This document shows positions 34,002 through 57,988 of a DNA stretch of 64,000 nt, in pieces; position 1 is the first letter of the stretch; the number at the start of each line of letters is the position of its first letter. The notes under the pieces were generated by a model, which searched no databases, was not told where the DNA came from, and saw only the letters and a program-made list of their open reading frames with translations. Both the position numbers and the translations under genes were made by a program. Source of the stretch: a virus; IMG/VR virus record IMGVR_UViG_3300047678_000431, positions 21,174-85,173 of that record; one strand, given 5' to 3'.

Positions 34002-34045
34002 GTGCTTGCGTGCGTGCGTGTATGCGTGCGTTCGTGTTTTTGCGT
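34002..34045. repeat. 4-bp-periodic TGCG array 1 (intergenic)
   Basis: TGCT TGCG TGCG TGCG TGTA TGCG TGCG TTCG TGTT. Confidence 0.85.
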
Positions 34046-34067
34046 ACCTTCGAAAGGCGGCGCCCGG

Positions 34068-35375
34068 ATGTCGACATCCACCGTTTCAACGACGTTTTCG
34101 ACGACGAATCCATCGGCGTCGCTGCCGTCCTATCCGACGGCTGCCGAGATTCTGATCGGTATTCAACAATCGGTTCAAAAACTCAATGGACTTATCACAA
34201 ATTTCAATGCGGGCGGCGTGACGGAAACCTACCTTGAAGGACTCTCGATCCTTTTAGGTTCGGATTCTTCGACGTTGCCGAATGTGACGATCGAGGGGGC
34301 TTATGAACTTCTCGCAACCGTGGCCGAATCGGCCTATGCATCCACCGCAAAAGGACCGGCACTTGATCTCAAGGGCCTCGATGTCGGCGTTGAACGCAAG
34401 CAGGCGACCACCGCGACGGCACCATTGCAATTCGCTCTTCCCCAACCGGCGACCGCGCCCGGTTATGTTATAGCGGCGAATACCATTTGCAGCGCAAACC
34501 CGGCCGACCCGACGCAAGGCCCGATTCTCTTTCAAACGACCGAGGCCGTCGTCGTCCCGACGGGGCAAACGCTTGCCCCGAATACCGTGCCGAGTGTGGC
34601 GATGGTCGCCGGTTCAAACGGTAACGTCATCGCCGGTGCGATCAATACCTGTATCACAAACGGTCAGTTGATTGTCACGAACCCCGGCAAGGCAAGCGGC
34701 GGGACCGATACCGAGATTGACGACGGCAATGATGGGGGGTATCGCAAGCGCGTCCTTGCCGCGATCCCAAACTCCTCACAATGCACGATCGCGGCCATCG
34801 AAAACGATGCGCTCGCGTTTCCGATTACCTCGGCCGTTCTCGTAGAAAATACCGCTGACGACGGCGTCACGCGGGAGCTTGGGCGCGGACAACTCTACAT
34901 CGACGACGGGTCGGGTGATCTCGGCAGTAGCTCAAACCCAAATTATGCATCGTTTGTCGCATTGCAAAACGCGTTTGATACGGGACTTTACCGCGCGGCC
35001 GGAACGCAAGTGCATGTTCGGGGTTCCGAATCGGTTGCGGTGGTTATTTCGCTTTCCATTACCGCAAGTACGCAAGCGATTACCCTCGGCGCATCCGAGG
35101 CGAGTATTGCATCCGATGTGCAGTCGGCGATTTACTCCTATGTTCAATCGCTTGTGATGGGGCACCCTGTTGACGTTGCGTCGATCGTTGCAATCGCAAA
35201 GAATGTCTTGTATAACGGCGGCGATACGAATGAGGTCGCAAACGTCAACGTTTCAAGCGTGCTCATCAATGGATCGAATTCTGATTTCACGCCGCAAGTG
35301 TATCAGCTTCCGCGCGTGCTCCCGAACATCTCGTCGATCACGGTCAACGTGACCGGCGTGTCTTCCTACGTGTAA
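34068..35375 (+). CDS. Baseplate J-like protein
   Basis: ITNFNAGGV, A.G.ALD, ERKQAT.A, GSNGNV.AG.I, SGGTD.E.D...YRKRV, RAAGT.V. Confidence 0.9.
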   Translation: MSTSTVSTTFSTTNPSASLPSYPTAAEILIGIQQSVQKLNGLITNFNAGGVTETYLEGLSILLGSDSSTLPNVTIEGAYELLATVAESAYASTAKGPALDLKGLDVGVERKQATTATAPLQFALPQPATAPGYVIAANTICSANPADPTQGPILFQTTEAVVVPTGQTLAPNTVPSVAMVAGSNGNVIAGAINTCITNGQLIVTNPGKASGGTDTEIDDGNDGGYRKRVLAAIPNSSQCTIAAIENDALAFPITSAVLVENTADDGVTRELGRGQLYIDDGSGDLGSSSNPNYASFVALQNAFDTGLYRAAGTQVHVRGSESVAVVISLSITASTQAITLGASEASIASDVQSAIYSYVQSLVMGHPVDVASIVAIAKNVLYNGGDTNEVANVNVSSVLINGSNSDFTPQVYQLPRVLPNISSITVNVTGVSSYV

Positions 35376-35390
35376 TCAGAGGGGCGCCGT

Positions 35391-36053
35391 ATGAGCTTTC
35401 TTTCGAGCCCGGCATCGTTGCTCGCGCAATTCTATCCGATCGCGCCATTCAATTTCGAAGCGCCGGTCGATCCCGGTGCAAACGTGCCCCCGATGCAGGC
35501 GATCTTACGTGTTGCTTCTGAGCGCCTCGCGCAAATGGAAAGCGACATTCTGCTTCTCCTCTCGCAAATGACGGTACAAGAGGCCGCCGGTCGGTATCTC
35601 GATTTACATGGCGTTCTCTATGGCATCCCGCGCATCATTGCGCCGAATTATGAACTCGATGGTCATTATCGCGCGCGCATTCTTGCCGGAACAAAGAAGC
35701 TCACGATTCCCGCAATTCGCGCCGTCGTGCAATCGTATTATCGGTCGATCTTACCGGCAAATCAGCAACCGACGGTCGACGTGTATGACTTGCAGAGTAA
35801 CCCAACAAAGTCGGCCGCCGCAAATCTCGTCATTTTTCAATTTTGCATCGACGTCGATTTTCAGGTTCTTGCATCAACGGCGTTCTTCTTCGATCGTTCT
35901 TATCTTGATACGAACGATTTTCTTATGGACTCGGGTGCTACGAAAAACACGCCGAGCGACCCGATCCTTGCCGCGATTGTGAACGCGACAAAGGCCGCAA
36001 ACACGGAACCCGTGTGGATTCAACGTTTTCACTTTGTCGATTCATACTCTTAG
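35391..36053 (+). CDS. Baseplate wedge (gpI/DUF2313-like)
   Basis: AAGRYLDLHGVLYGIPR...YRARIL; follows J. Confidence 0.75.
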   Translation: MSFLSSPASLLAQFYPIAPFNFEAPVDPGANVPPMQAILRVASERLAQMESDILLLLSQMTVQEAAGRYLDLHGVLYGIPRIIAPNYELDGHYRARILAGTKKLTIPAIRAVVQSYYRSILPANQQPTVDVYDLQSNPTKSAAANLVIFQFCIDVDFQVLASTAFFFDRSYLDTNDFLMDSGATKNTPSDPILAAIVNATKAANTEPVWIQRFHFVDSYS

Positions 36054-36062
36054 GGGGAGCCG

Positions 36063-37427
36063 ATGCCTGCACTGCGCACGTTTTATCAGTTCGGCATGCA
36101 AGGCCGTTCGCAAGACTGGAACAACGACGGATATAACGTCGGTACCCTTGTCGGCGAAGTTATGGCGGCGTTCGTCGGCGAGACGGAAGTTCGCCCGTCG
36201 GTCAACGCGATCACCGTCGTTCCCGGATCGGGCCTTTCGGTTGTGGTTGGCGGTACCGGTCAAACGGTATTCGTCCGCGATTCAAATGGGAATTTGCAGC
36301 TTGCCGATTATCTCCCGGCGGATACGATCACCCTTGCGGCGGCCGACCCTTCGCAAACACGCATCGACCTTTTGAGTTTCGTCTACCTTGAAGGCGATGG
36401 CGGCGATTTCAATGTCGCATATGAATCGCCATCGGGGACGATAACCCAACCCCCGAATGGTGTCGAGACGCATTACGTCGCGCGGGGCGTTCAAATTACG
36501 TTAACCGAGGGAACGCCCGGGCAACCGGCCCCGGCAACCCCTGCGGGAAGCTACCCGCTCGCACATATTCAAATTCTCGCAAACGCAACATCTCTCACGA
36601 CGGCGAATATCAATGTCGTCGTGCCGACGCTCTCGCAGGCGTTACAGAGTGCCGGGTCCGCATCGAATACGACGTATTCGTCAGTGGATAATTATATCGC
36701 GTTTGACAACGTCGGGCCGAATCAAATCGGCCTGCGACTTGTAAAACCTTATCCAACGTTTTATCAGTCCGACGATGGGTCGATCAAGTTTTCAATAACT
36801 CCGGCAACCGTCACCGAACCCGCGCTCGGTGACCCGATCACCTTACACGCAACGGTCGACCTCGCCGCCGCCACCGCCGCCACGACAATCGGATCGTCGA
36901 GTTCCCTTGCATTTAATGCCGGGGTCGTCTTTTACCGGCAACGCGGCAACGCTGGCACGAATGAAGCGGGGCTTGAACCGGGAACGCCTCTCGCACCGTA
37001 TCCAAGCGGCGGCACGCAGTCGCCGAGCCCCGGCGACGCCTCGATCTCGCCGGTCGGGTGCTTTAATGGTGCCGTCGCGTTTAATTCGTCATATACGGGG
37101 CCGCAAACGATTCAAGCCGAGTTTGTCGTCATGGTCAAACCCGGTGCCGGTGCGCAAACCGTCGGCGGCGCGAATAGTAATAATGCGACGTTAAGCAATG
37201 GAACGTGCGCGGTGTATTTTGACAATACCGCCGTGTCGACGCTCACCGGGCCGACCAATAATACGTTCACGTGGTCCGCAACAATTCCCGATGATGGTCA
37301 TCCGCATATCATCGTTTTTCATATCAACTATAATGGGCCGATCACCGCGCAGTGGAATGTTTGGTTGCCGCTTAGTGCGGGCGGGGGCGTTGACGCAACC
37401 AAGATCGGAATGGTAGGGCCGACATAA
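36063..37427 (+). CDS. Tail fibre protein
   Basis: AAADPSQTRIDL, GTPGQPAPATP.GSYPLAHI baseplate-attachment motif. Confidence 0.7.
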   Translation: MPALRTFYQFGMQGRSQDWNNDGYNVGTLVGEVMAAFVGETEVRPSVNAITVVPGSGLSVVVGGTGQTVFVRDSNGNLQLADYLPADTITLAAADPSQTRIDLLSFVYLEGDGGDFNVAYESPSGTITQPPNGVETHYVARGVQITLTEGTPGQPAPATPAGSYPLAHIQILANATSLTTANINVVVPTLSQALQSAGSASNTTYSSVDNYIAFDNVGPNQIGLRLVKPYPTFYQSDDGSIKFSITPATVTEPALGDPITLHATVDLAAATAATTIGSSSSLAFNAGVVFYRQRGNAGTNEAGLEPGTPLAPYPSGGTQSPSPGDASISPVGCFNGAVAFNSSYTGPQTIQAEFVVMVKPGAGAQTVGGANSNNATLSNGTCAVYFDNTAVSTLTGPTNNTFTWSATIPDDGHPHIIVFHINYNGPITAQWNVWLPLSAGGGVDATKIGMVGPT

Positions 37428-37930
37428 TGACGTTGCAAGAAGAAATCAGCGATCTTGTCGATGATGGAGAAAAGCGCGGTCGCATGTATAGCGATCTCGC
37501 AAAACAATCGCGCGATCTTTATCACGCGACCAAACTTGCATTGAGCGTCGCCGATAATCTCGATATTCCCGGATGGCATATCGAACGTGTGCCGATCCCT
37601 CTCTTCGGGGTCGAAATGCGATTATGCGAGGCGACTGAAGTCGGCGTGAAATACCATTTAAGCCGTGATGAAGCGTATGACATCACGATCGTCGTGCAAC
37701 GTGGTCTTTTGCACGTGGAGTATCCCGACGCAGGCGAAGCCGGTACGTTCGAAATGGATGCTGGCCGCATGTGGTATTTGCCCGCAAATGTCGCGCGAAC
37801 GACCTTCTCCGCAGAAGTGCCGACCACGCTCTTCGCGATACTGTACGGAAGGCCTCAAGATCGTGGAAGAACCGATGCCCCAAAGTGGCCCTTTGTCGCT
37901 GAGCCCTTGGATAGCAGAAAAGATCATTAA
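37427..37930 (+). CDS. Cupin-like protein
   Basis: YH...EAYDITIVVQRGLLHV...AGRMWYLPANVAR. Confidence 0.5.
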   Translation: MTLQEEISDLVDDGEKRGRMYSDLAKQSRDLYHATKLALSVADNLDIPGWHIERVPIPLFGVEMRLCEATEVGVKYHLSRDEAYDITIVVQRGLLHVEYPDAGEAGTFEMDAGRMWYLPANVARTTFSAEVPTTLFAILYGRPQDRGRTDAPKWPFVAEPLDSRKDH

Positions 37931-38237
37931 GCTTTCTGAGGCGACTTCGCAACTTGCGGCGCTGGGGCAAGCGACGAATGAACGGGTGAATTCGAATTCA
38001 AGCCAACTGATAAAGCTCGAATCCGAAATCGACCAACTCGATAATCTCCCCGATCGCGTTAAGGCGCTCGAAGACTATAATGCGGCGGACGTCGCGCGCG
38101 CGAATAAACGCAAAGAAGATCGCGAAGCGCGTCAGTCCGACATTCTCAAAGAATCCGCAAAGGGCCTCGCTACGGCGGCCGGTGGATACCTTGTCGCGCA
38201 ATGGCCGACGATTTACAAATGGTTTATGCATCACTAA
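37875..38237 (+). CDS. Coiled-coil + C-terminal TM protein (XhlA/holin-like)
   Basis: Heptad region then hydrophobic C-terminus; directly upstream of endolysin. Confidence 0.55.
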   Translation: MPQSGPLSLSPWIAEKIIKLSEATSQLAALGQATNERVNSNSSQLIKLESEIDQLDNLPDRVKALEDYNAADVARANKRKEDREARQSDILKESAKGLATAAGGYLVAQWPTIYKWFMHH

Positions 38238-38246
38238 GGGGACGAC

Positions 38247-38993
38247 ATGAGTATCATCACCGCGCATTGGTCTGCGACGTCGCCCGATGATTCGGGCGTG
38301 TATCACCGGCTCGGCGATTATCATGCTGAGTTCGGATTGATCAAACCGTTGTCAAACACGGTCTTGACGCATTGCCGAAATGCAGTCCACCCGGCCGATG
38401 TGCCGTGGAGTGATCTTTCACATATCTTCGCGGTTTGGAAGAATTACAATTTCGATACGGCGACATCATACGGGACGTGGATGTGGAATCACGATTTCCG
38501 TGATAATACTCCGAATATTGAAGTCGCCGCGTTGTGTATGGGTGGGTCGGATGTTTGCACGACCGATTTCGGCGCGCATCCGTTTACAAAGGCGCATGCG
38601 TGGATGATGGCCGGTGTCATTGCGCGGATCGCAAAACTCAAAGGCATTGATCCGATGCAATCATTCGAGGCGGTCAATGGGTACATGAACGGGCCGCTCT
38701 TTGCGGTTTCCACGCATGGCGAGCGTGCGTACCAAACGGAGAATATGCAAGTCGAGAACGCCGATCGTGGATACTCCGGGTATCGCGGATACGGCGCGTA
38801 TTCTGCCGACCCCGACATGCGATGGGATCTTGACGTCCTCGACGTTGCCGATCTCAAGGCGCTCGGAAGTTTTCAAACCGCATACGCTGCGACGAAATCT
38901 TCGGCGGCATGGCTACGCAACGCGGCCGCGTCGATTATTCACGCAAACTACACGGCCGACATGTGGGGCCTTGACGTGGCCGTCGCGCGTTAA
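38247..38993 (+). CDS. Endolysin, N-acetylmuramoyl-L-alanine amidase-like
   Basis: HWSA...YH...NT.NI..A.LCM...THGE...RWDL. Confidence 0.75.
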   Translation: MSIITAHWSATSPDDSGVYHRLGDYHAEFGLIKPLSNTVLTHCRNAVHPADVPWSDLSHIFAVWKNYNFDTATSYGTWMWNHDFRDNTPNIEVAALCMGGSDVCTTDFGAHPFTKAHAWMMAGVIARIAKLKGIDPMQSFEAVNGYMNGPLFAVSTHGERAYQTENMQVENADRGYSGYRGYGAYSADPDMRWDLDVLDVADLKALGSFQTAYAATKSSAAWLRNAAASIIHANYTADMWGLDVAVAR

Positions 38994-39268
38994 ACCTTCG
39001 AGCGATGATTCGCGAGCATGTCTGTGATGGCGTGCTCGATGAGTGTTTGCTTCTTTACCCCGGTCCGTTTGTAGAGGGCATCAAGCTCGAGCCAAACGGA
39101 TTCACTCAAACGCACGGACATGGGTACGGTGGCTTTTGGCCCCGTGCTTGTTTGCGTGCGTGCGTGCGTGCGTTCTTGTATGTGTGTTTTCGGACTCGTG
39201 GCGAGGTCTTCTAACGAGACAGCGCCGCTTGAGTTCTGGGCATGTTGACGGGACGCACGCGCGCTCAT
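38990..39268 (-). CDS. Ribbon-helix-helix DNA-binding protein (ParG/CopG-like)
   Basis: Disordered N-terminus then MSVRLSESVWLELDALYKRTGVKKQTLIEHAITDML; GGAG RBS; ATGA-coupled to ATPase. Confidence 0.8.
   Translation of the reverse strand: MSARASRQHAQNSSGAVSLEDLATSPKTHIQERTHARTQTSTGPKATVPMSVRLSESVWLELDALYKRTGVKKQTLIEHAITDMLANHRSKV
39143..39189. repeat. 4-bp-periodic TGCG array 2 (inside RHH gene)
   Basis: TGCT TGTT (TGCG)5 TTCT TGTA TGTG TGTT. Confidence 0.85.
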
Positions 39269-40131
39269 GGTGTTTCTCCGTGCCCGAGGGCGTGAGCGGC
39301 ACGGGTGACGTGCCGGATGTGAATGCGGGTCGACTCAAGATCGGCCGCGTAGGACATGGCTCGGTTCGCGATCGTACATGCAATACGCGGCACGCCTCGC
39401 GAATATTCGTAGAGTAAGGCGATTGCGCCATCGTCGAAAAGGTTCTTCTTCGCCCCGGCGACTTTAAGCCGGTGCGCAATCATTTCTTCAAGGTCGTGAG
39501 CATCGAGGCGACTGAGTTGCGTGTGCATCGTCAAACGCGAATGAAACGCGGCATTGCCTTTGAGCACGTCGATCATTTCGGGATTCTGTCCGAACAGAAG
39601 AATTTGCACAAGCGGTCGGTCGACGGCGGTCATGTTACAAATCGACAAAAGCGCGTGAATGCCGGTCGGTCGTAAGAGATGCGCGTCGTCGAGTAAGATC
39701 ACGACGGTATCGCCTTGCTCATGCTGCCGCCACGCTTCGGCCTCGAGCTTGCGTAGGGACGTTTCACTTTTTGCCCGCTCGCGCGTTTCAATCCCGAGAT
39801 CGCGATTGATTTCGAGATGTATTTGCGCCTCGGTTTGCCGGGCGCCGCCGGGAACCCGGTAGAGTGACGCAACAGAATTGCGCTCCCCTGCTTCGCGGGC
39901 GAACAGCGATGCGAGCGTCGTTTTGCCTGTACCGATTTCGCCTGAAATACAGGCGATACCGAGGCGTCCGTTTATGACGTCGCGGCCGTGCTCGAGCGCC
40001 TCGCGCATCGAGCTTGTCACGTATGCGAATTTCGCATGCGGTGAAATCCGAAACGGATACTCTTTGAGATCGAACCATGTGGCGTAGGGCGAGAGCGTTT
40101 CCTCGCAGGGGGTCGTTTTGAATGTATCCAT
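39265..40131 (-). CDS. ExeA-like AAA ATPase (AAA_22)
   Basis: F.L.E.PF, GEIGTGKTT Walker A, ILLDDAH Walker B, LFGQ.PE, YSRGVPR; GGAG RBS before ATG 40131. Confidence 0.88.
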   Translation of the reverse strand: MDTFKTTPCEETLSPYATWFDLKEYPFRISPHAKFAYVTSSMREALEHGRDVINGRLGIACISGEIGTGKTTLASLFAREAGERNSVASLYRVPGGARQTEAQIHLEINRDLGIETRERAKSETSLRKLEAEAWRQHEQGDTVVILLDDAHLLRPTGIHALLSICNMTAVDRPLVQILLFGQNPEMIDVLKGNAAFHSRLTMHTQLSRLDAHDLEEMIAHRLKVAGAKKNLFDDGAIALLYEYSRGVPRIACTIANRAMSYAADLESTRIHIRHVTRAAHALGHGETP

Positions 40132-40137
40132 CTTCTC

Positions 40138-40174
40138 CGCTTGCGTGCGTGCATTCGTGTATGCGTGCGTGCGT
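40138..40174. repeat. 4-bp-periodic TGCG array 3 (directly upstream of ATPase RBS)
   Basis: TGCG TGCG TGCA TTCG TGTA TGCG TGCG TGCG. Confidence 0.85.
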
Positions 40175-40205
40175 CTCTTTTTCCTCAAAGTAAGGAGTCC
40201 TCGTT

Positions 40206-40577
40206 ATGAACGCGACCACATCGCAGGCCCTCGGGTTCTCGCTCAATTTCGTCATCGGTATCGTCGTCGGCGCGCTTGCGTCAAAGTTCACGCCGATCGC
40301 AAAAACGCAAGGCGCAATCGTCGGCAATGAAGTCGGAACGGTCGTCGTCAATTCGGTCAATGCGGATATGGCGCCCGAATTGCGCCCGGCGGTTCTCGCG
40401 GAATTGAAGTCGATCGCGACGACCCTTGAGGCGAAGTCGCAAACCGTCGCGCAAACAGCCTCGCAGATTCTCACGAAGGTCGCCCCCTCGATTCCAACGG
40501 CGACTTCGGATCAGATTGCGCAAGTGCTTGCCGATTTCGTACTCACCTTTGAGGCCGGGTTCATCGCCGAACTCTAA
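40206..40577 (+). CDS. N-terminal TM protein, possible holin
   Basis: TAAGGAG RBS; LGFSLNFVIGIVVGALA TM segment. Confidence 0.55.
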   Translation: MNATTSQALGFSLNFVIGIVVGALASKFTPIAKTQGAIVGNEVGTVVVNSVNADMAPELRPAVLAELKSIATTLEAKSQTVAQTASQILTKVAPSIPTATSDQIAQVLADFVLTFEAGFIAEL

Positions 40578-40621
40578 ACGCACGCATGCATGAAAGCAAG
40601 AACGCACGCATGCATACACAC
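40578..40621. repeat. 4-bp-periodic TGCG array 4 (inverted orientation)
   Basis: Minus strand: TGTG TGTA TGCA TGCG TGCG TTCT TGCT TTCA TGCA TGCG TGCG. Confidence 0.85.
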
Positions 40622-40800
40622 CCTAAAGTTCGTTTCTCGGGCGCCGATAGAGAGGTATCGCCGTTTTCCGCACGATGCACGTTCCGTACTGACGCGCTTC
40701 GTGCGCAGAAGCGAGCGGCGATCCATGAGCGGCGCACGGAAGCGTAGCACTGCCCGCCTGTTTTCTCTCTCCGTGGGAACAGGCGGGCGTTCTTTCTTTT

Positions 40801-40850
40801 GAGCCGTGAGAAAACGCGTGATGACGTTGTTTTCTCACGGCTCTTTTTTT
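40801..40850 (+). terminator. Long-stem intrinsic terminator
   Basis: GAGCCGTGAGAAAAC / GTTTTCTCACGGCTC 15-bp stem then T7. Confidence 0.8.
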
Positions 40851-40893
40851 GTCTCTTCCGCCTTGATTTTCCGGGGTTTTTCGTGCAAATGGG

Positions 40894-40922
40894 TTGATCT
40901 TACGTCATATGTTTGTTATACT
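40894..40922 (+). promoter_or_regulatory. Sigma70-type promoter of recombination/replication operon
   Basis: TTGATC-17 bp-TATACT with extended TG. Confidence 0.7.
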
Positions 40923-42428: not shown

Positions 42429-42458
42429 TTGCCGAAATCAACCCTTTTGCGTTACGAT
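42429..42458 (+). promoter_or_regulatory. Putative promoter for leader-rep transcript
   Basis: TTGCCG-18 bp-TACGAT. Confidence 0.5.
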
Positions 42459-42483
42459 TGCGCGTACACGTCCCAATCCAGGC

Positions 42484-42691
42484 AAAACAAAAGACCCCGG
42501 TGTACCAAGCCGGAGTCTTTTGCGGAAAACGTTGCTCCCTCTGGCGATTCGAAGCCGAAATTCTTCGAACCGTTGCCGAGAGCGATGGAGCCCGGAACCG
42601 GGACAAACAATCATCCATATAGCTTTTTTCGAGGAAACCCATATGATCGTTCGCCGTCGGCGCAGCGTCGCCGCTGCATTACCCGAGCGCC
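42484..42691 (-). ncRNA. Predicted antisense RNA to the rep leader
   Basis: Minus-strand promoter TTGCGT-17-TATCTT (42726-42698, extended TG); internal long hairpin; terminator hairpin 42522-42488 followed by TTTT. Confidence 0.5.
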
Positions 42692-42786
42692 ATCTACAAG
42701 ATACCATTTCGAGGCGCCGGACGCAAGAACTTTACAAAAATTTGCGCCTCCCCGCCCGGCAAGTAACCGGAGGGTCGCAGGCATGA
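42643..42786 (+). CDS. Leader peptide coupled to replication initiator (47 aa)
   Basis: GAGGA RBS; its TGA overlaps rep ATG (ATGA at 42783-42786). Confidence 0.55.
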   Translation: MIVRRRRSVAAALPERHLQDTISRRRTQELYKNLRLPARQVTGGSQA

Positions 42787-43784
42787 GCTACGGGACCTAT
42801 ACGGCCGCGATGCTTTCCATCGAACCGGCCGAAGCGCGACACATGGCGTTCACGCTCAATTTGTTCCGCAATCTTGAGACGGGGGAATGCTGGCCCTCTC
42901 AAGAGACGCTTGCCAAAACGGCCGCAATGCACCCCGCAAATGTGCGTCGGGCATTGCGGTCGCTTGAACATCAAAGAATCATCAAACGCGTCGGCGTGAG
43001 CAAATCTCGGACGACGATCTATGTGATCGACCCGATTTTTATTCATAGCCCCGGAACGCAAAGCCCCTCGATTGCCGCCTCGATCGAGACGGCTTCTCGC
43101 AAGCTTACGACTAAGAAGAAGACCCGATCACACCGATCGGTTGACCCGATCACACCGATCGGTTCAACCCGATCACACGGATCGGTATATACCGATCACA
43201 CGGATCGACAACAAGACGATAGACAAGACGATATGACAAGACGAAAGACAACCGGAGTTTTTGTCGCGGCGAAATCAGACGAGGCCGCCGTCGGAGACGT
43301 CGTCTCGTCGGTCGAAGAGATTGCGACAAAAGTCAAAAAAATCGCGAAGAAGAAACCCGAACGGACGTATCACCCCGAGGCATTCGGGATCGTCGATTTT
43401 TTTGCGACCCTTCGCGCCGAGCTTTTGCCGACGGCCGCCGTCGACCAAAAGTTTCGCTTCGCAACGCGCACCGTCGCCGACCGATTGCTCAAACGCGCCT
43501 CGGTCGCCGAGGTCAAGCAACGCATCTTGCGCATGCGGGCGAATATCCCGGATTCAAAGCCGAATCTTTTCGCGAGCCTTGCGCAACTCGAACACCAATG
43601 GGACCGGTGGGGGCCGGGCCGGGAAGAGGCCGCCCGCCTCGCCGGTTTTCAGGCCAAGCTTCCCGAGATCGCGCCGGTCGTCGCATCGGTTCCCGACGAC
43701 GTCCTTGCCGAGATTCGCGAGCGTAAGGCGGCAATGTGGTCGAGTGATCGGAAATCCGAGGCATCGAAGGCGGTGGCGGCGTAA
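42783..43784 (+). CDS. Replication initiator (HTH_36-type, lambda O-like)
   Basis: GECWPSQETLA..AAM....VRRALRSLE....I; internal iterons; followed by DnaC-like loader. Confidence 0.85.
   Translation: MSYGTYTAAMLSIEPAEARHMAFTLNLFRNLETGECWPSQETLAKTAAMHPANVRRALRSLEHQRIIKRVGVSKSRTTIYVIDPIFIHSPGTQSPSIAASIETASRKLTTKKKTRSHRSVDPITPIGSTRSHGSVYTDHTDRQQDDRQDDMTRRKTTGVFVAAKSDEAAVGDVVSSVEEIATKVKKIAKKKPERTYHPEAFGIVDFFATLRAELLPTAAVDQKFRFATRTVADRLLKRASVAEVKQRILRMRANIPDSKPNLFASLAQLEHQWDRWGPGREEAARLAGFQAKLPEIAPVVASVPDDVLAEIRERKAAMWSSDRKSEASKAVAA
43121..43250. repeat. Replication origin: four iterons plus A-rich repeats
   Basis: GACCCGATCACACCGATCGGTT exact twice (43121, 43143), two variants (43166, 43191), then ACAAGACGA three times. 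Confidence 0.8.
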
Positions 43785-52543: not shown

Positions 52544-52610
52544 TGTGTACCTAGGGCGCATAGGCACCGACTTGCCGACGCGCCCTCGCACGTTCTAAGG
52601 ATACCCTTGC

Positions 52611-52871
52611 ATGACGCATACGACCGACCTCAAACCGCGCTTATTGGCGCGGATTTCCGTCGTTATCGGACACGCCGATCCGGCAAACGACCCGCGTCCT
52701 GAGATGGATGCGCACATCCTTCCGATCGACATTGAAGCCGATTCGATCGACTCGCTTCGTATCCGCGCCGTCCGGTGCGTCGATCGAGCGATTAAAGCCG
52801 TCGGCGATCCGGGGGCCGGTGTCCTCGGCATTGCATATGATCCCCATGCCCGAGAAACGGAATCCGCTTGA
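52611..52871 (+). CDS. Hypothetical protein
   Basis: ORF after intergenic gap. Confidence 0.55.
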   Translation: MTHTTDLKPRLLARISVVIGHADPANDPRPEMDAHILPIDIEADSIDSLRIRAVRCVDRAIKAVGDPGAGVLGIAYDPHARETESA

Positions 52872-53287: not shown

Positions 53288-53451
53288 TGGAATCGCTCAT
53301 GCCTCGGATGCATTGTCCCGATTGCGATCAGACATATCGCGCGACCAAGGAGCACGAACTGCGCACCTGCCGTCTCTGTGGCGGCCGCGACGTCGTCGAA
53401 ACGCAGGCCGTCAATGTGACGTCAACCGTGTCCGTGAGTCCAAACCCGTGA
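53284..53451 (+). CDS. Zinc-ribbon protein
   Basis: CPDC...CRLC; ATGA-coupled. Confidence 0.55.
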   Translation: MMESLMPRMHCPDCDQTYRATKEHELRTCRLCGGRDVVETQAVNVTSTVSVSPNP

Positions 53452-53669
53452 CGAGTTTCGGACCGGTGACGCTTTCCGTTGAATCCATCGACGGACTATC
53501 AAAGCTCACCATACGACGGGAATCGGGATCGACTCGGGTGCGTGTCGAGATTGCCCGAGAAGAGGTCGACGGATTACGTCGCCGGATCATCGAAGTCGTC
53601 GACGGCCTCGATATTGACCGGCGCTCGTTACTTGATTTCGCGCATTCGATCACGGATGGTTTGCTTTAG
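53448..53669 (+). CDS. Hypothetical protein
   Basis: GTGA-coupled start. Confidence 0.5.
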   Translation: MTSFGPVTLSVESIDGLSKLTIRRESGSTRVRVEIAREEVDGLRRRIIEVVDGLDIDRRSLLDFAHSITDGLL

Positions 53670-54079
53670 GCGTTTCTCGCTCCGAGAAATTCCAGCAGCG
53701 CGATTTCGATCGCAGTGCTTTTGGAAGATCCGATGCGCTCGGCCCATTCACAGATACGATCATGAACTTCCGGCGGAAGGGTGATGCTCGTCCGCACGCG
53801 CTTTTGTGCAAGAGGCGGACGACCGGTGGACACCGATATGCTGACGCCTTCGTGTAATGCATGCTCATACGCGCGATACGCCTGGCGCCATGCTCGGTTT
53901 TTGATCATGTCGTCATCGGCATGGTGTTGATAAAGATGTTCTTGAATGGCGCGAAAGGTTTTCGCCCGAACTTCGTGTCGGCATTTCTGATCGAGCCAAC
54001 CGACGAGTGTTGCGTACGTGATTCTCTGGGTCGGATGTTTAATCCATTGCACGAAATGCGGCGTGATGTTCTTGCGCAT
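53666..54079 (-). CDS. Two-domain protein with C-terminal RHH
   Basis: GRPP...RVRTSITLPPEVHDRICEWAERIGSSKSTAIEIAL. Confidence 0.7.
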   Translation of the reverse strand: MRKNITPHFVQWIKHPTQRITYATLVGWLDQKCRHEVRAKTFRAIQEHLYQHHADDDMIKNRAWRQAYRAYEHALHEGVSISVSTGRPPLAQKRVRTSITLPPEVHDRICEWAERIGSSKSTAIEIALLEFLGARNA

Positions 54080-54136
54080 GATGTGGGGGAAAAGGCGCCT
54101 TTCGTCTTGGTACAAAAGGCGCCTTTTCGACGAACC

Positions 54137-54532
54137 TTATGAGTGCGGAAGTGATTCGGTAACCGTCTCAGTCGAGGTCTTTTCGGTTGCCGTGATGGTG
54201 TTCGGTGCGAGTGTCGCCGGTGGCGTCGAAGGCACGAGACTATTGAGTAAGTCACGCGCATGCACGATCGCGATGGCGATTTCGCTTGTGGCGAAGGCTT
54301 CGATCGGGGCTTGAAATCCGGTCGAAATCTCGTCGAATACCTTGAGCGCGGCGGTTGCCGTTTGCGGAATGTAATTTCGTGCAAACGAGACAATATCGGT
54401 TTCAACGGTCGGAACAATGCCGGTCGCCTGAGAGGCGATCAAATCCAGGATGTTCTGAAGATATTGTTTTGCGGCAAGGCGATCGGTAATCGCATCCTGC
54501 TCGACTTGGGCGATAGTTTTGTCAAACGACAT
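54137..54532 (-). CDS. Hypothetical protein
   Basis: GAGG RBS before MSFDKT. Confidence 0.65.
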   Translation of the reverse strand: MSFDKTIAQVEQDAITDRLAAKQYLQNILDLIASQATGIVPTVETDIVSFARNYIPQTATAALKVFDEISTGFQAPIEAFATSEIAIAIVHARDLLNSLVPSTPPATLAPNTITATEKTSTETVTESLPHS

Positions 54533-54885
54533 AGAGAAAGCCTCACAAAAAAGGGCGTTCCGTGCTGTGCGCACGGGATCACCCTGTTTGCATCGGCTGA
54601 CGTCTTGAAAACTTTACAATGCGAGGGTTGCAATTTCCGCTTTCACCCGCTCGATCGTATCCCACGCCTGGCGGTATTCCTCATCTGTCGGGTTGCATTC
54701 GGCTTTTGCGTAGGCGCTCATAAGTTCGTTTTCAAGTGCGCGTTTGCGGTCTTTTCCGTCTTGCATGATCGTACCCCTTGGAAAAAGGCGTTTGGTTAGC
54801 TGGTCCCCTTATTTTACCCGAACTGCCTAGAAGAGTCGACGCGGCGATGGTAAAGAATCACCGAGGCAACCCCTAAAGAGGGCAC

Positions 54886-55152
54886 ATGTCACACGATGCA
54901 CCGTACCCGACGAGTATCCTCACGACGGCCGTCATGCCCGAGTCGATTGTTCATGACGTCCTAGCTTCTCATGATGCCTCGTTCGAGGCCGCGCAAACGC
55001 ATTTCGAGCGATTGCTCGAAGCCTGCAACGGCGATCCGGCGCGTGCGCTTGGGATCTCGCTCATGGTTTCGGAATTACTCCTCACCATTTGCCACACGGT
55101 CGACCAGAAAAGCGAGGCGCCCGCTGAAGACAAGGAAATCCCCCGCACATGA
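54886..55152 (+). CDS. Hypothetical protein
   Basis: GAGGG RBS. Confidence 0.6.
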   Translation: MSHDAPYPTSILTTAVMPESIVHDVLASHDASFEAAQTHFERLLEACNGDPARALGISLMVSELLLTICHTVDQKSEAPAEDKEIPRT

Positions 55153-55162
55153 AACCTTCGCC

Positions 55163-55384
55163 ATGCTCGAGCCGCGAGATCTTTGCGCAAGTAATATTCG
55201 ATGCAAGGAATGCGGCAAGCGCCTCTATTTTGGCGCCTTCGCAAGCGCGCATCTCGAAACCGTCGTGATGTATGGTCAGAATCTTTTGACGCTCATGATG
55301 ACGACCCATATCATGAGTGGTCACATTGTCGGCACCGAGGAAGAACTCGAACGCTTCCACGTCCCGATACCGAGCCCGGTATGA
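55163..55384 (+). CDS. Small zinc-binding protein
   Basis: CKEC...H...H. Confidence 0.5.
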   Translation: MLEPRDLCASNIRCKECGKRLYFGAFASAHLETVVMYGQNLLTLMMTTHIMSGHIVGTEEELERFHVPIPSPV

Positions 55385-55596
55385 ACGAGATGTCACAAGA
55401 CGCAAGGCTCGCGGAAGTGCGGCGATTGCGGGAAAACTTTCTGCAAACGAAGACTGACGTCGTTAAATATATCGACGAATATACCGAACGAAAGATACGT
55501 GAGTTACAAGATCATTGCCCACATGGCGATTGGTTCGAGATTTCGCATGACCGATTTTGCAACGCATGCGGATACCGTGAATGCATCCTGGAATAA
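55381..55596 (+). CDS. CPH-CxxC paralog 1
   Basis: LQDHCPH...CNAC. Confidence 0.65.
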   Translation: MNEMSQDARLAEVRRLRENFLQTKTDVVKYIDEYTERKIRELQDHCPHGDWFEISHDRFCNACGYRECILE

Positions 55597-55787
55597 TCGA
55601 ATCGGCGGCGTTCTTTAACTTGCTCGCGACGTTGTATATCGGGATTCTCTTTCTCGCAAATACACTGCCGCGATCGAATAAGAAGACGATTCTCGTCTGG
55701 GGCGTGCGATTATGGGTCTTTCTCGTTTGTTCAGAGGTGTTCGTGTTTGTAGCGATGTCGATACGGTTTGCGCACTCGTGCCGGTAG
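55581..55787 (+). CDS. Small two-TM membrane protein
   Basis: Two hydrophobic segments. Confidence 0.55.
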   Translation: MHPGIIESAAFFNLLATLYIGILFLANTLPRSNKKTILVWGVRLWVFLVCSEVFVFVAMSIRFAHSCR

Positions 55788-56014
55788 ATTTCACGAAAGT
55801 CTTCAACGATGCCGCTGAGGCGCGCAAGGTGCGTGCGGATGAACTTGCCGCATATAATATGCTGATCGCTGAATCCGAAAAGCGATATAAAGAGAAGATG
55901 AAACGGCTTCAGGATTCATGCCCGCATGATTTTCAATCTCATGTCGGATATTCGAAAGAAGATGTCTGTCGCGCATGTGATTATGCAAAGCCGGAATCCG
56001 GTCGATACCGATGA
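55778..56014 (+). CDS. CPH-CxxC paralog 2
   Basis: LQDSCPH...CRAC; start uncertain. Confidence 0.6.
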   Translation: MPVDFTKVFNDAAEARKVRADELAAYNMLIAESEKRYKEKMKRLQDSCPHDFQSHVGYSKEDVCRACDYAKPESGRYR

Positions 56015-56304
56015 CTATCGACATTGAGATTGCGCGGAAAATTCGCATCGAAGCCGACGAATCGCATGCGATGAATAAAGCGCGACTCATGGACGATCTT
56101 TCAATCGTGCAGCAACGATTCGCAGAGAACGATCGGCGATATGAATGCGTGTTGCAAAAGATTCGCCGCGAATGTCCGCACGATTTTCGCCTTCGAGAAG
56201 AGGCGCGACATGTACTCGGCGATGGTTTATCGGCCGTGTACGATCATTCGGTCGAGATCAAAAGATGCGCGATATGCAATTACACGGAGGAGCGAAAATT
56301 GTGA
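56011..56304 (+). CDS. CPH-CxxC paralog 3
   Basis: IRRECPH...CAIC. Confidence 0.65.
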   Translation: MTIDIEIARKIRIEADESHAMNKARLMDDLSIVQQRFAENDRRYECVLQKIRRECPHDFRLREEARHVLGDGLSAVYDHSVEIKRCAICNYTEERKL

Positions 56305-56555
56305 TGACGCTCGAGGAAGTGAAAGATCGCGTTGCGATTGCGAATCGCCAACGGTGGGCGACGATTGACGAATGTCATCGGTTTTATCAAGTAACCCTTG
56401 CCGCATTTCAGCGGGAATGCCCTCACGAGTGGTCTGAATTCCAAGTTGATCATTGGACCGAAGATTTTCCCGGTGGAACGGCGACGCTTGGTAGTATGAG
56501 CCTGCGAAAATGCAATGTCTGCGAATTTCAAGAAAAGATCACGAATGAGAACTGA
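56304..56555 (+). CDS. CPH-CxxC paralog 4
   Basis: FQRECPH...CNVC. Confidence 0.65.
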   Translation: MTLEEVKDRVAIANRQRWATIDECHRFYQVTLAAFQRECPHEWSEFQVDHWTEDFPGGTATLGSMSLRKCNVCEFQEKITNEN

Positions 56556-57126
56556 ACGGCATGTGTATGTCGGATTCGATCTCGAAACGACAGGCCTCGA
56601 TCCCCTGCGGCACGGCATATGTGAAATCGGCGCCGTCGCGACCTCTTCGCGGGGTGAGATTGTCGGACGATTCCGGGAAGATTGCAATCCCGGCCTCGAG
56701 TTCGGTATCGAGGTCGATCCGTCTGCCCTGGCGGTGAATAAGTTCACGCTCGATCGTATTGAAGATGCCCCGTATATCGGCAGTGTCCTCACGCGATTCT
56801 TCACGTTCTTGCACGATCTTCGTGATCAACCGGTCATCGTTTCGCAAAACTCGCCGTTCGATACGGGATTCATGCTCGCGGCTATGCGCCGGGAGCGTAT
56901 GGACATCGCCGAGATTGGCCGCCCCTTCCGGCGTGGCCTCGATACGATTTCGATCGCCTTCGCTACCCTAGGCGACGGCCTGCTCCATTCGCAATCTTCC
57001 CTCTCGAAGGTCATGGGATTTCCCCCGGACCCGCGCGCCCATACCGCAGAGGCCGACGCCGAGCGTTGCATCATGCTTTTTCATGCGTTGTCCGATATGA
57101 ACGAAAGACGGCGAAAAAAGATCTAA
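56545..57126 (+). CDS. DEDDh 3'-5' exonuclease (DnaQ-like)
   Basis: FDLETTG, QN..FD, LDT, AHTAEADA. Confidence 0.9.
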   Translation: MRTERHVYVGFDLETTGLDPLRHGICEIGAVATSSRGEIVGRFREDCNPGLEFGIEVDPSALAVNKFTLDRIEDAPYIGSVLTRFFTFLHDLRDQPVIVSQNSPFDTGFMLAAMRRERMDIAEIGRPFRRGLDTISIAFATLGDGLLHSQSSLSKVMGFPPDPRAHTAEADAERCIMLFHALSDMNERRRKKI

Positions 57127-57334
57127 GATCTCGCACCTTGCCCGCATTGCGCCCGCGCCGTCACCGGCTTGCGGGTGTTTTGTTTTTGGAGTGCTCGCAT
57201 GTTATCGACTACCCTGATGCTCGTCTTACACATCCTGAATCCGAATGCCCCACCGATCGCCGATATGGTCGCGGTCGAAATGGCCCGTTCCACTGAACTC
57301 GCCGTCTATATGAGCGAGCCGAGGAGTTTCACAG

Positions 57335-57988
57335 ATGACCCCCGAGACGCCGAAGCCCCCAAAATCAACAAAGTCGCCTAAAACCGAAAAATCCGGCGAT
57401 TCTCCGCAACCTACGCGCGCGCGCACGCGCGAGGGTGAGAAGAATCAAGAACGCACGCACGCACGCACGCAAACACGCAAACAATCAATTCCCCCTGATG
57501 AGGATGCCGATCGACGAAAGTCGCTTTCCGGCCCGATTCCGCTCGACTCGCCGCTCAAAGAACCCTACATCGAAAAATCTTACGACATGTACGTCCGCAA
57601 GCAGATGAGCTTCTCGCGCATCGCCGAGGCGCTCGGTATCAACCGAGACACGGTGTCGGCGTATGTGAAGTTCGAGTCGACCCGTCGCAGTGAAGAAAAC
57701 GCCGCTATGCGCACGGCCAACATCGAGCGCAACCTCGAGTCGCTCGCGATCGTGGAGGAGACAAACATCTCCCGTATGTTCGCCGCCGACCGCCGGGGTG
57801 ACGAGGCGCGATACGTCCTCGAAGCGTGCAAGCAGCGGATGATGCTACTCGGCCTCGATGAGGGCGTCGTGATCAAGGATGAACGCAAACATGCAAACCC
57901 CTTCGAAGGACTCGGGAGAGACGAACTCGTCGCCATCCTCAAAAACGCCCCAACCGGCGGCGCATTCCACCGACCCGACTCACGATGA
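57335..57988 (+). CDS. Terminase small subunit (HTH type)
   Basis: MSFSRIAEALGINRDTVSAYV, RMMLLGLD; upstream of TerL; GAGGAG RBS. Confidence 0.7.
   Translation: MTPETPKPPKSTKSPKTEKSGDSPQPTRARTREGEKNQERTHARTQTRKQSIPPDEDADRRKSLSGPIPLDSPLKEPYIEKSYDMYVRKQMSFSRIAEALGINRDTVSAYVKFESTRRSEENAAMRTANIERNLESLAIVEETNISRMFAADRRGDEARYVLEACKQRMMLLGLDEGVVIKDERKHANPFEGLGRDELVAILKNAPTGGAFHRPDSR
57446..57485. repeat. 4-bp-periodic TGCG array 5 (inside terS)
   Basis: CAAGAACGCACGCACGCACGCACGCAAACA, 30 bp identical to the reverse complement of 39149-39178. Confidence 0.85.

What the first reader, a model, noticed from the sequence alone, without database searches (positions are those of the whole stretch)
34002..57485. 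Five dispersed TGCG arrays, including an exact 30-bp copy inside terS
Seen: arrays at 34002-34045 (between wedge and baseplate J genes), 39143-39189, 40138-40174, 40578-40621 (inverted) and 57446-57485 (inverted). The 30-mer CAAGAACGCACGCACGCACGCACGCAAACA is identical in the RHH gene and in terS, and encodes QERTHARTQT in both. The 4-bp phase survives substitutions, which fits selection for protein binding better than microsatellite slippage. Known: pac sites often lie within terS, and the linear phage-plasmid N15 uses several dispersed centromeres. Inference: multiple centromeres, and/or roadblocks that let the RHH protein repress baseplate and packaging genes or link segregation to packaging.
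Basis: partly seen in the sequence, partly recalled or inferred. Interest (0 to 1): 0.75.

Follow-up and report, generated by a model that had tools for sequence, protein, structure and literature searches.

The report
Seven phased tetranucleotide arrays in a phage
An 85-kb phage from moss metagenomes carries seven near-identical-length (40-48 bp) blocks of 10-12 four-base units (mostly GCGT), in genes and between genes alike; they are real, far beyond chance and look selected at the DNA level, but what reads them is still unproven.

Summary
All five arrays are at the stated places, and the genome (85,173 bp, circular assembly) has two more outside the window. This scan had already noted six of them from an overlapping window of the same genome.

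Each array is 10-12 consecutive in-phase tetramers with T at every fourth base (80 of 80 units). GCGT is the main unit. No intermediate-length copies exist, and no other microsatellite type occurs in the window. The four-unit core is absent from about 0.55 Gb of bacterial genomes searched.

Four arrays lie inside ORFs, always in tolerant segments: three disordered or linker regions and one lipoprotein signal peptide. Three are intergenic. Six of seven lie near a start codon, and three bracket the AAA+/RHH operon.

My best reading (about 0.35) is a cooperative binding platform on double-stranded DNA for a phage protein, most plausibly the tailed RHH, acting as operator or roadblock. Binding itself is untested.

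The centromere reading lacks support. There is no ParA or ParB, the ATPase is an initiator-clade AAA+, and a relative of the AAA+/RHH pair has no arrays. The pac idea could not be tested.

Rivals that remain open are G·U RNA hairpins or RNA-RNA pairing, and tolerated selfish or neutral repeats. No relative's DNA with orthologous array positions could be fetched.

The parts
34000..34045 (+). Array A3: 10 in-phase NNNT tetramers (CCGT GCTT GCGTx3 GTAT GCGTx2 TCGT GTTT). Intergenic, 18 nt after the stop of the baseplate-wedge gene and 22 nt before the baseplate J start.
   Evidence: gene
39142..39189 (+). Array A4: 12 tetramers including (GCGT)5. Lies inside the RHH ORF on the opposite strand (codons 27-42, disordered tail) and 150 nt downstream of the last + strand gene of the structural block.
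40139..40182 (+). Array A5: 11 tetramers filling the 74-bp divergent gap between the AAA+ ATPase start (40131, - strand) and the 123-aa gene start (40206, + strand).
40575..40623 (-). Array A6: 11 tetramers, T phase on the - strand. Starts at the stop codon of the 123-aa gene. Inverted relative to A5, with extra flanking inverted repeats.
57440..57487 (-). Array A7: 12 tetramers, T phase on the - strand. Lies inside the putative terS ORF (codons 37-50 of a basic disordered N-terminal tail) and shares an exact 30-mer with A4.
38990..39268 (-). 92-aa protein: disordered residues 1-49 plus a C-terminal ribbon-helix-helix-like fold. Its start overlaps the ATPase stop (ATGA). Candidate array binder.
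   Evidence: Pfam RHH_3 E 1.4e-3, below the cut-off; AF2 strand-helix-helix with pLDDT 87-94 over residues 50-80; top Foldseek hits are all RHH proteins but with E of 0.4 or more; no sequence homologues found
39265..40131 (-). 288-aa AAA_22 / ExeA-like AAA+ ATPase, upstream partner of the RHH gene.
40206..40577 (+). 123-aa protein with one N-terminal hydrophobic segment and no family match. Flanked by the inverted arrays A5 and A6.
57335..57988 (+). Putative small terminase (217 aa): basic disordered tail, then a weak HTH. Its start is ATGA-coupled to a small upstream ORF and has a GAGGAG ribosome-binding site. A 48%-identical homologue keeps the tail.
34068..35375 (+). Baseplate J gene, immediately downstream of A3.
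   Evidence: Pfam Baseplate_J E 2e-15; phrog_6

Best explanation
The seven arrays are one family of discrete DNA elements. Each is 10-12 contiguous tetramers of the form K-Y-K-T (consensus GCGT). They are kept at the DNA level whatever the strand, frame or coding context.

Most likely each array is a cooperative binding platform on double-stranded DNA for a phage-encoded sequence-specific protein. The best candidate is the 92-aa RHH protein with a flexible N-terminal tail, whose operon is bracketed by three arrays. By analogy with other RHH proteins, about one dimer would sit on every two tetramers, so 5-6 dimers would coat 40-48 bp.

Coating A5 would shut off the protein's own divergent control region. 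Coating the other arrays would hinder initiation or early elongation at a small set of genes: baseplate J, the putative terS, a lipoprotein, a secreted protein and the 123-aa membrane protein.

Shown: existence, discreteness, phase, enrichment, positions, the DNA-level constraint and the RHH-like fold. Inferred: that a protein binds, which protein it is, and the regulatory outcome.
For: 1. Uniform size (10-12 units) with no intermediate class. Strict K-Y-K-T runs of 9-11 units occur only at the arrays, plus a single 5-unit run elsewhere. Two-unit words outside the arrays are at expectation.
2. T4 is invariant in 80 of 80 units, and replacements are restricted and T-biased.
3. The DNA overrides the protein. 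A2 forces a Cys-rich lipoprotein signal peptide. A1, A4 and A7 force T-H-A-R peptides into disordered segments. Both orientations are used relative to genes, as expected for a duplex-level site placed wherever the protein tolerates it.
4. Six of seven midpoints lie within -80 to +180 nt of a start codon (random mean 2.3, P about 0.007). Three arrays lie within 1.44 kb around the RHH operon (P about 0.026).
5. A5 fills the 74-bp divergent region upstream of the AAA+/RHH operon.
6. The RHH-like fold with a disordered tail matches the ParG precedent: 12 degenerate tetramer boxes coated cooperatively, flexible tails required, box orientation free (PMC3130281).
7. The arrays are identical in spanning contigs from four runs.
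Against: - No binding data exist.
- The RHH is an orphan, so co-variation of protein and site cannot be examined.
- L002, the only fetched relative of the AAA+/RHH pair, has no arrays or other tandem repeats in 1.95 kb.
- A second RHH protein and several HTH proteins are encoded elsewhere, so the binder is not pinned down.
- No sigma-70-like promoter could be recognised under any array.
- The start-codon window in the proximity test was chosen after seeing the data.
- N-terminal regions are also simply the most tolerant places for any insertion.
Confidence: 0.35

Rival explanations
1. RNA-level element. (UGCG)n is self-complementary through G-C and G·U pairs, so transcripts of the TGCG strand fold into hairpins followed by U-rich units. 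These could act as strand-specific attenuators or terminators, as RNA stabilisers, or as processing sites. Transcripts that carry arrays in opposite sense, (UGCG)n and (ACGC)n, could also pair with each other in cis (A5 with A6 around the 123-aa gene) or in trans.
For: - The terminator scan flags A3, A4, A5 and A7 on the TGCG strand.
- Folding energy is -17 to -32 kcal/mol on the TGCG strand against -7 to -16 on the other strand.
- Non-pairing units (TCTT, TCGT) sit at hairpin loops in A1 and A5. GTAT and GCAT variants stay pair-compatible.
- A3 lies 18 nt after a same-strand stop codon, and A4 lies 150 nt after the last gene of the + strand structural block.
- The minimum-energy and centroid folds of the 123-aa mRNA pair A5 with A6.
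- The three sense-(UGCG)n arrays all lie at translation-initiation regions.
Against: - Orientation relative to local transcription is mixed, 3 sense and 4 antisense. A1, A6 and A7 have no upstream same-strand gene to terminate.
- The order of units stabilises the hairpins only marginally over unit shuffles (summed P about 0.05; A2 and A7 are not better).
- U tracts are poor at A1 and A6.
- The phage uses canonical Watson-Crick terminators at 40753-40850.
- T-rich units occur at both ends of the arrays, not only at the 3' end.
- A terminator inside the first 20 codons of its own gene (A2) would be self-defeating.
- No Rfam family matches.
Confidence: 0.2
2. Non-adaptive or selfish simple-sequence element. 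A GCGT microsatellite expanded and was copied among sites by recombination or gene conversion (the phage encodes a RecT-like annealing protein). It survives only where the genome tolerates it: intergenic gaps, disordered tails and a signal peptide. It has no function of its own.
For: - Every coding copy lies in a low-constraint segment.
- A K-Y-K-T strand has almost no A, so the arrays are nearly free of stop codons in all six frames.
- An exact 30-mer shared by A4 and A7 suggests recent copying or conversion.
- Pure GCGT cores with degenerate edges are typical of ageing microsatellites.
- (GCGT)4 microsatellites do occur sporadically in more than 119 viral contigs.
Against: - Uniform length and the absence of short or intermediate copies are not what birth-and-decay predicts.
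- Only one motif type is expanded in the window.
- T4 is never mutated, and replacements are strongly biased to T, including G-to-T transversions.
- No length variants were seen across runs, although contigs hide rare variants.
- A copy is retained inside an essential packaging gene.
- There is no mechanism for copying a 45-bp block into sites without flanking homology.
- The terS homologue shows no gap at the array position, so A7 is not a simple insertion.
Confidence: 0.2
3. Dispersed centromeres of a phage-plasmid. The RHH protein bound to the arrays, together with the AAA+ ATPase, segregates the prophage replicon.
For: - No integrase was found, and a lambda-O-like initiator with iterons is present, which is compatible with plasmid-like maintenance.
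- An ATPase plus tailed RHH plus upstream repeat array resembles type Ib layouts such as ParF-ParG-parH (PMC3130281).
I did not check this in a paper.
Against: - No ParA (PF13614) or ParB (PF02195) is present.
- The ATPase is AAA_22, nearest to ORC/Cdc6, TnsC and RuvB, a clade with no known partition motor.
- L002 keeps the gene pair without arrays.
- A plasmid lifestyle is not shown. The record is a virion-type genome with a 127-bp assembly overlap.
- Centromere function would not explain the placement near start codons.
Confidence: 0.1
4. DNA-structure or recombination element. Each array holds 13-25 nt of strictly alternating pyrimidine-purine sequence, which has Z-DNA potential and could absorb transcription-driven supercoiling. 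Alternatively, the G/T-rich strand could act as a Chi-like or annealing-protein hotspot.
For: - GCGT, GTAT, GCAT and GTGT units all keep the alternation.
- A5 sits in a divergent region.
- Five of seven arrays share one orientation, with a single switch near the RecT and replication module.
Against: - Most variant units (TCTT, GCTT, GTTT, GATT and others, about 27 against 10) break the alternation.
- The orientation pattern has about a 1-in-3 chance of arising at random.
- The orientation switch lies 2.8 kb to the left of the iteron origin, so a replichore rule fails for A6.
- No Z-DNA-binding protein or Chi specificity is known for this host.
Confidence: 0.07
5. Packaging signal: A7 inside the putative terS is the pac site.
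For: A7 lies in the terS ORF, where pac sites of several headful phages lie (textbook knowledge). The assembly is circular, which is compatible with a permuted genome.
Against: Six further copies lie outside terS. Termini could not be mapped because the runs are held as contigs only.
Confidence: 0.04

Closest known systems
ParG-parH/OF of plasmid TP228 (type Ib partition and autoregulation; PMC3130281)
   Same: An RHH protein with a flexible N-terminal tail, encoded directly after an ATPase gene. Its target is an array of about 8-12 degenerate tetramer boxes lying upstream of the operon. Box orientation is free and coating is cooperative.
   Different: ParG boxes (ACTC) are separated by 4-bp AT-rich spacers, giving an 8-bp period over about 100 bp. 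Here the tetramers are contiguous over 40-48 bp. The partner ATPase here is an AAA_22 AAA+ protein, not a ParA. The copies here are dispersed over 85 kb and lie inside ORFs. Binding is untested.
Omega repressor of pSM19035 (own knowledge, not checked in a paper here)
   Same: An RHH global regulator that coats tandem short repeats at several separate promoters; the sites also serve as centromeres.
   Different: Omega sites are 7-bp heptads located at promoters, and the partner is a ParA-type ATPase. Here the units are 4 bp, four of seven sites lie inside coding sequence, and no promoter was recognised at them.
Stoperators of Cluster A mycobacteriophages (own knowledge)
   Same: Many dispersed copies of one short motif across a phage genome, bound by one phage regulator that blocks transcription.
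   Different: Stoperators are single 13-14-bp asymmetric sites, number 20-35 per genome, lie mostly in intergenic DNA, are co-oriented with transcription, and are bound by an HTH immunity repressor. Here there are 7 tandem arrays in mixed orientation.
Dispersed sopC-type centromeres of phage-plasmid N15
   Same: Several copies of one site spread through phage genes.
   Different: N15 sites are palindromes bound by a ParB-family SopB working with a ParA-family SopA. Neither family is present here.
Tetranucleotide contingency loci, for example in Haemophilus (own knowledge; background papers listed)
   Same: Tandem 4-bp units inside or at the 5' end of ORFs.
   Different: Contingency tracts are long, uninterrupted and length-variable, and they switch reading frames. 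Here the pure runs are at most 5 units, the arrays are interrupted, their length is uniform, they are invariant across four runs, and one sits in an essential packaging gene.
Rho-independent terminators and REP-type dispersed hairpin repeats
   Same: The TGCG-strand RNA forms stable hairpins followed by U-rich sequence. The family is dispersed and often lies at gene ends.
   Different: Pairing here relies on G·U and exists on one strand only. Orientation fits transcription at only 3-4 of the 7 sites. The phage has canonical terminators elsewhere.

Membership tests
Type Ib partition cassette (ParA + RHH centromere-binding protein + repeat centromere) | Adjacent Walker-type ParA/ParF ATPase | tested here: not met
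   PF13614 has no match in the whole genome. The adjacent ATPase is AAA_22, nearest to ORC1/Cdc6, TnsC and RuvB.
Type Ib partition cassette (ParA + RHH centromere-binding protein + repeat centromere) | Small RHH DNA-binding protein encoded after the ATPase | tested here: inconclusive
   RHH_3 E 1.4e-3, below the Pfam cut-off. AF2 gives strand-helix-helix with pLDDT 87-94 and a disordered tail. The top Foldseek hits are all RHH proteins, but with E of 0.4 or more.
Type Ib partition cassette (ParA + RHH centromere-binding protein + repeat centromere) | Array of short repeats directly upstream of the operon | tested here: met
   A5 (11 tetramers) begins 8 bp upstream of the ATPase start codon.
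Type Ib partition cassette (ParA + RHH centromere-binding protein + repeat centromere) | Repeats travel with the gene pair in relatives | tested here: not met
   L002 (ATPase 36% identical, overlapping RHH-like ORF with a tail) has no arrays or tandem repeats in 1.95 kb. This is one relative only.
Type Ib partition cassette (ParA + RHH centromere-binding protein + repeat centromere) | Stabilises a plasmid replicon | not testable with these tools
   Needs a segregation assay.
N15-type dispersed centromeres | ParB/SopB-family binder | tested here: not met
   PF02195 has no match.
N15-type dispersed centromeres | Palindromic sites | tested here: not met
   The arrays are direct tetramer repeats on one strand.
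Stoperator-type dispersed operators | Sites co-oriented with transcription | tested here: not met
   Three arrays are sense and four antisense relative to the local genes.
Stoperator-type dispersed operators | Bound by the phage repressor | not testable with these tools
   No binding data; the repressor has not been identified.
Slipped-strand contingency microsatellite | Long uninterrupted tract | tested here: not met
   The longest pure run is (GCGT)5; 42 of 80 units are variants.
Slipped-strand contingency microsatellite | Unit-number polymorphism in populations | tested here: inconclusive
   No length variant appears in contigs spanning the arrays in four runs. Contigs drop rare variants, and the samples come from related studies.
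Rho-independent terminator | Stable RNA hairpin followed by a U tract | tested here: inconclusive
   Hairpins form on the TGCG strand in all seven. U tracts are good at A3 and A5, moderate at A2, A4 and A7, and poor at A1 and A6.
Rho-independent terminator | Lies downstream of a gene, in that gene's sense orientation | tested here: not met
   This holds for A3 and A4, and arguably A2. It fails for A1, A6 and A7, and A5 has no upstream + strand gene end.
pac site within terS | Virion DNA ends cluster at the site | not testable with these tools
   The runs are available only as assembled contigs.
Z-DNA-forming tract | Alternating pyrimidine-purine run of 12 bp or more | tested here: met
   Each array holds 13-25 nt of strict alternation. 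Whether Z-DNA forms in vivo cannot be tested here.

The most novel reading that the evidence does not exclude
A previously undescribed phage genome-marking system. About twelve contiguous K-Y-K-T tetramers form a six-frame-open recognition module that can be written into ORFs as well as spacers. It is read by a tailed RHH protein together with an initiator-clade AAA+ ATPase. Through it the phage silences, organises or segregates its own genome. In an alternative form, the arrays make an mRNA-mRNA pairing network between (UGCG)n leaders and (ACGC)n coding segments.
Probability: 0.15. Interest if true: 0.8.

Novelty: new variant of a known kind. Interest (0 to 1): 0.55.

Why it matters
If the arrays are binding platforms, they show how a phage can place regulatory sites inside essential coding sequence. 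The repeat it uses cannot create stop codons and translates into either a hydrophobic or a disordered hydrophilic peptide, depending on the strand. That would be a neat solution to the conflict between overlapping DNA and protein codes.

It would also give a first function for the AAA_22 + tailed-RHH gene pair, which occurs in other uncultured phages. Proteins 42-56% identical to the ATPase exist on contigs of 74-86 kb.

If the arrays prove to be neutral, they remain an unusual case of motif-specific, length-uniform repeat spread in a virus. The question can be tested directly with a few gel-shift, footprinting and RNA-end-mapping experiments.

Tried and rejected
- **Relatives' DNA.** I therefore could not fetch the contigs of the ATPase homologues P0002-P0007 or of the terS homologue P0063.
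- **Profile scans with the ATPase alignment.** Scans of metagenome contigs, genome contigs and viral contigs returned only relatives of about 30% identity of the ExeA type. The terL scan gave one 33% relative (L001, 34% GC) with no arrays.
- **Phage and plasmid collections.** blastn and tblastn found no close relative.
- **Exact array words in viral contigs.** The 21-mer gave no hit. The 17-mer gave 8 unrelated contigs. (GCGT)4 gave more than 119 contigs, mostly single generic microsatellites, none related by tblastn.
- **RHH homologues.** None were found by the word-index search or by the full HMMER search. No PDB sequence match either.
- **Literature.** Word searches for the repeat and for phage tetranucleotide repeats found nothing relevant.
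- **Earlier notes.** Look-ups by sequence and by words returned nothing.
- **Host search.** A pattern search of 306 bacterial genomes found no arrays. The host remains unknown.
- **Rejected: replication iterons.** The real 23-bp iterons lie inside the rep gene.
- **Rejected: promoters.** No hexamer pairs were found under the arrays, and their orientation is mixed.
- **Rejected: a replichore-orientation rule.** It fails at A6.
- **Rejected: the ORF at 40623-40838 (- strand).** Its translation is Arg/His-rich and looks non-coding.
- **Not usable as evidence: excess summed depth over the array bins in read laying.** It comes from short matches of 85% identity or more from other contigs, and a CG-rich stretch lies next to A7.

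Full report
**Source.** The window is bases 21,174-85,173 of an 85,173-bp IMG/VR virus record. The record is rated 100% complete and has a 127-bp end overlap, so it is a circular assembly. Near-identical DNA occurs in at least eight moss-metagenome runs. The genome encodes baseplate and tail genes, a large terminase, a RecT-like protein, a lambda-O-like initiator, an IstB/DnaC-like loader and an SF2 helicase. No integrase, ParA or ParB was found.

- A scan for at least 19 of 24 matches to (TGCG)n on either strand finds exactly those five in the window. Dinucleotide shuffles give 0.08.
- The whole genome has two more, at genome 487-543 (A1) and 14854-14901 (A2).
- The same scan finds none in 2.0 Mb of unrelated metagenomic and genomic loci.
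- The four-unit core is absent from 306 bacterial genomes, about 0.55 Gb.
- TRF finds no other period-4 repeat in the window, and no other real microsatellite.
- The exact 30-mer shared by A4 and A7 is confirmed.

**Anatomy.**
- Written in phase, each array is a run of 10-12 consecutive tetramers ending in T: 12, 12, 10, 12, 11, 11 and 12 units. The longest such run elsewhere in the genome is 8.
- In 2 Mb of control loci, T- or A-phase runs of 11 or more units occur about 6 times. That gives about 0.25 expected per 85 kb, against 6 observed.
- Of the 80 units, 38 are GCGT. Position 4 is T in all 80. Positions 1, 2 and 3 vary in 17, 20 and 35 units, and 50 of the 72 changes are to T.
- Variant units recur across arrays (TCTT x6, GCTT x6, GTAT x5, GTTT x5), and so do word combinations: GCGT-GCGT-TCTT occurs in five arrays. 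A3 and A4 share a 5' edge. This is one sequence family, not seven independent microsatellites.
- Strict K-Y-K-T runs of 9-11 units occur only at the arrays, and a single 5-unit run is the only shorter example. Two-unit 8-mers outside the arrays are at Markov expectation. There is therefore no continuum of lengths.

**Context.** A simple codon-score gene map, checked by hand, places the arrays as follows.
- **A1** lies in a secreted 154-aa protein on the opposite strand and reads ...STHARTQERTHA... just after its signal peptide.
- **A2** covers codons 4-19 of a 632-aa lipoprotein, where it spells the Cys-rich signal peptide up to the lipobox.
- **A3** lies in the 85-bp gap between a baseplate-wedge gene and baseplate J.
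- **A4** covers codons 27-42 of the 92-aa RHH ORF on the opposite strand.
- **A5** fills the 74-bp divergent gap between the AAA+ ATPase and a 123-aa membrane protein.
- **A6** starts at that gene's stop codon.
- **A7** covers codons 37-50 of the putative terS.

The long forms of both contested ORFs are probably real.
- The RHH start overlaps the ATPase stop (ATGA), and the internal ATG has no ribosome-binding site.
- In L002 the ATPase is likewise followed by an overlapping ORF with a long tail and an RHH-like end.
- The terS start has a GAGGAG site and ATGA coupling to a small upstream ORF.
- A 48%-identical homologue (P0063) has the same start, MTP(E/D)ET, and a basic tail of equal length with no gap at the array. 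It reads STQARKPARKQ where this phage reads ERTHARTQTRKQ. The A-R pairs four residues apart are compatible with a degenerate array there, but its DNA could not be seen.

So the arrays sit only in protein segments that tolerate them. The TGCG sense gives A/C/V/L-type hydrophobic peptides and is used once, in a signal peptide. The ACGC sense gives T/H/A/R/Q hydrophilic peptides and is used three times, in disordered regions. A strand with almost no A cannot encode stop codons, nor can its complement. The DNA dictates the protein here, not the reverse.

**Placement statistics**.
- Six of seven midpoints lie within -80 to +180 nt of a start codon (random mean 2.3, P about 0.007; the window was chosen after seeing the data).
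- Three arrays lie within 1.44 kb (P about 0.026).
- Three of seven are intergenic, against 16% non-coding DNA overall.

**Population data**.
- Contigs from four runs that span the arrays are identical.
- The only variants are a 151-nt, low-depth contig with two 1-nt insertions in A5, and a 2x-depth joint between A4 and A5 with only 21 nt on one side. Both are too weak to use.
- Only contigs were available, so DNA termini cannot be read.

**What reads the arrays?** Orientation relative to local genes is mixed (3 sense, 4 antisense). It is explained by which peptide the host protein tolerates. This points to a function on duplex DNA that does not depend on orientation.

The nearest plausible reader is the 92-aa protein.
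- Pfam RHH_3 matches weakly (E 1.4e-3, below the cut-off).
- AlphaFold gives a confident strand-helix-helix for residues 50-91 and a disordered region for residues 1-49.
- The best Foldseek hits are all RHH proteins (CopG, PutA, antitoxins, Arc, omega), although with weak E-values.
- ParG, an RHH with a flexible tail encoded after its ATPase, coats 8 and 12 degenerate tetramer boxes, whatever their orientation, and represses its own operon (PMC3130281).
- By that analogy, 5-6 dimers would coat each array. A5 would be the autoregulatory site, and the other arrays would act as roadblocks or operators at a few gene starts.

This is my best explanation at about 0.35. The binding, the identity of the binder and the effect are all inferred.

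**Why not a centromere?**
- The ATPase is AAA_22, with ORC1/Cdc6, TnsC, RuvB and clamp loaders as nearest solved relatives.
- No ParA or ParB family member exists.
- L002 keeps the gene pair but has no arrays or tandem repeats.
- A plasmid lifestyle is not shown.

I keep this reading at about 0.1.

**RNA rival (0.2).**
- (UGCG)n is self-complementary through G-C and G·U pairs. The terminator scan flags four arrays.
- TGCG-strand RNAs fold at -17 to -32 kcal/mol, against -7 to -16 for the other strand.
- TCTT or TCGT units sit in the loops of A1 and A5.
- A3 and A4 follow same-strand gene ends.
- A5 and A6 pair in the predicted fold of the 123-aa mRNA.
- Against: unit order improves stability only marginally over shuffles (P about 0.05). 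Three or four arrays have no transcript to terminate. T-rich units flank both ends. The phage has two canonical tandem terminators at 40753-40850.

**Neutral or selfish repeat (0.2).** This fits the tolerant locations and the shared 30-mer. It does not fit the uniform length, the missing short class, the invariant T4, the T-biased replacements, or the absence of a gap in the terS homologue.

**Minor rivals.** Z-DNA or a recombination hotspot (0.07), and pac (0.04).

**Ruled out: iterons.** The real 23-bp iterons lie inside the rep gene at 43122-43207.

**Limits.**
- The RHH has no detectable homologues.
- The host is unknown.
Another (e1-6104846) proposed the AAA+/RHH partition idea.

Noticed in passing
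window 43122-43251: A 23-bp repeat in 3.8 copies, followed by a 12-bp repeat in 3.3 copies, lies inside the lambda-O-like initiator gene (42429-43784). This is probably the replication origin. It is unrelated to the TGCG arrays.
   Followed up: partly
window 40753-40922: Two tandem canonical hairpin-plus-T-tract terminators (-22.5 and -31.5 kcal/mol) close the + strand unit that ends with the 123-aa gene. They are followed by a TTGATC-17-TATACT promoter-like site with an extended TG, ahead of the RecT-like gene.
   Followed up: partly
L002:677-1925: A soil-type metagenome contig keeps the AAA_22 ATPase (36% identity) followed by an overlapping ORF with a long tail and an RHH-like C-terminus. 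The two-gene module is therefore conserved, but no arrays accompany it.
   Followed up: partly
window 40139-40623: A5 and A6 are an inverted pair flanking the 123-aa membrane-protein gene. The minimum-energy and centroid folds of that mRNA pair the 5' leader with the 3' trailer.
   Followed up: partly
outside the window: genome 14845-16743 (window -6328 to -4430): A 632-aa lipoprotein with a long Pro/Thr-rich linker. Its signal peptide, unusually rich in Cys, is spelled by array A2.
   Followed up: partly
window 53666-54115 (-): A second RHH protein (149 aa; RHH_1 at 21.5 bits, above the cut-off) lies in a small - strand block. It is another possible array binder or the phage repressor.
   Followed up: no
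window 39166 / 40139: One low-depth contig in run X5 joins A4 directly to A5 and skips 972 bp (most of the AAA+/RHH operon). Only 21 nt lie on one side of the joint, so it may be an assembly artefact. If real, recombination between the directly repeated arrays can delete the operon.
   Followed up: no
window 38900-39536 and 57373-58000: Summed contig depth over the bins that hold the arrays is 3- to 30-fold above the phage baseline in all four moss runs. Other contigs (one of 4.8 kb) end in array-like sequence. Other genomes in the community may carry similar repeats, or a neighbouring CG-rich stretch may attract matches.
   Followed up: no
window 57200-57338 and 57408-57432: A 46-aa ORF is ATGA-coupled to the putative terS start. 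A CG-rich, nearly alternating stretch lies directly upstream of A7 within the terS tail.
   Followed up: no
P0002-P0007 (no DNA held): Proteins 42-56% identical to the AAA_22 ATPase exist on contigs of 74-86 kb, which are probably sister phages. They are the obvious place to test conservation of the arrays.
   Followed up: no
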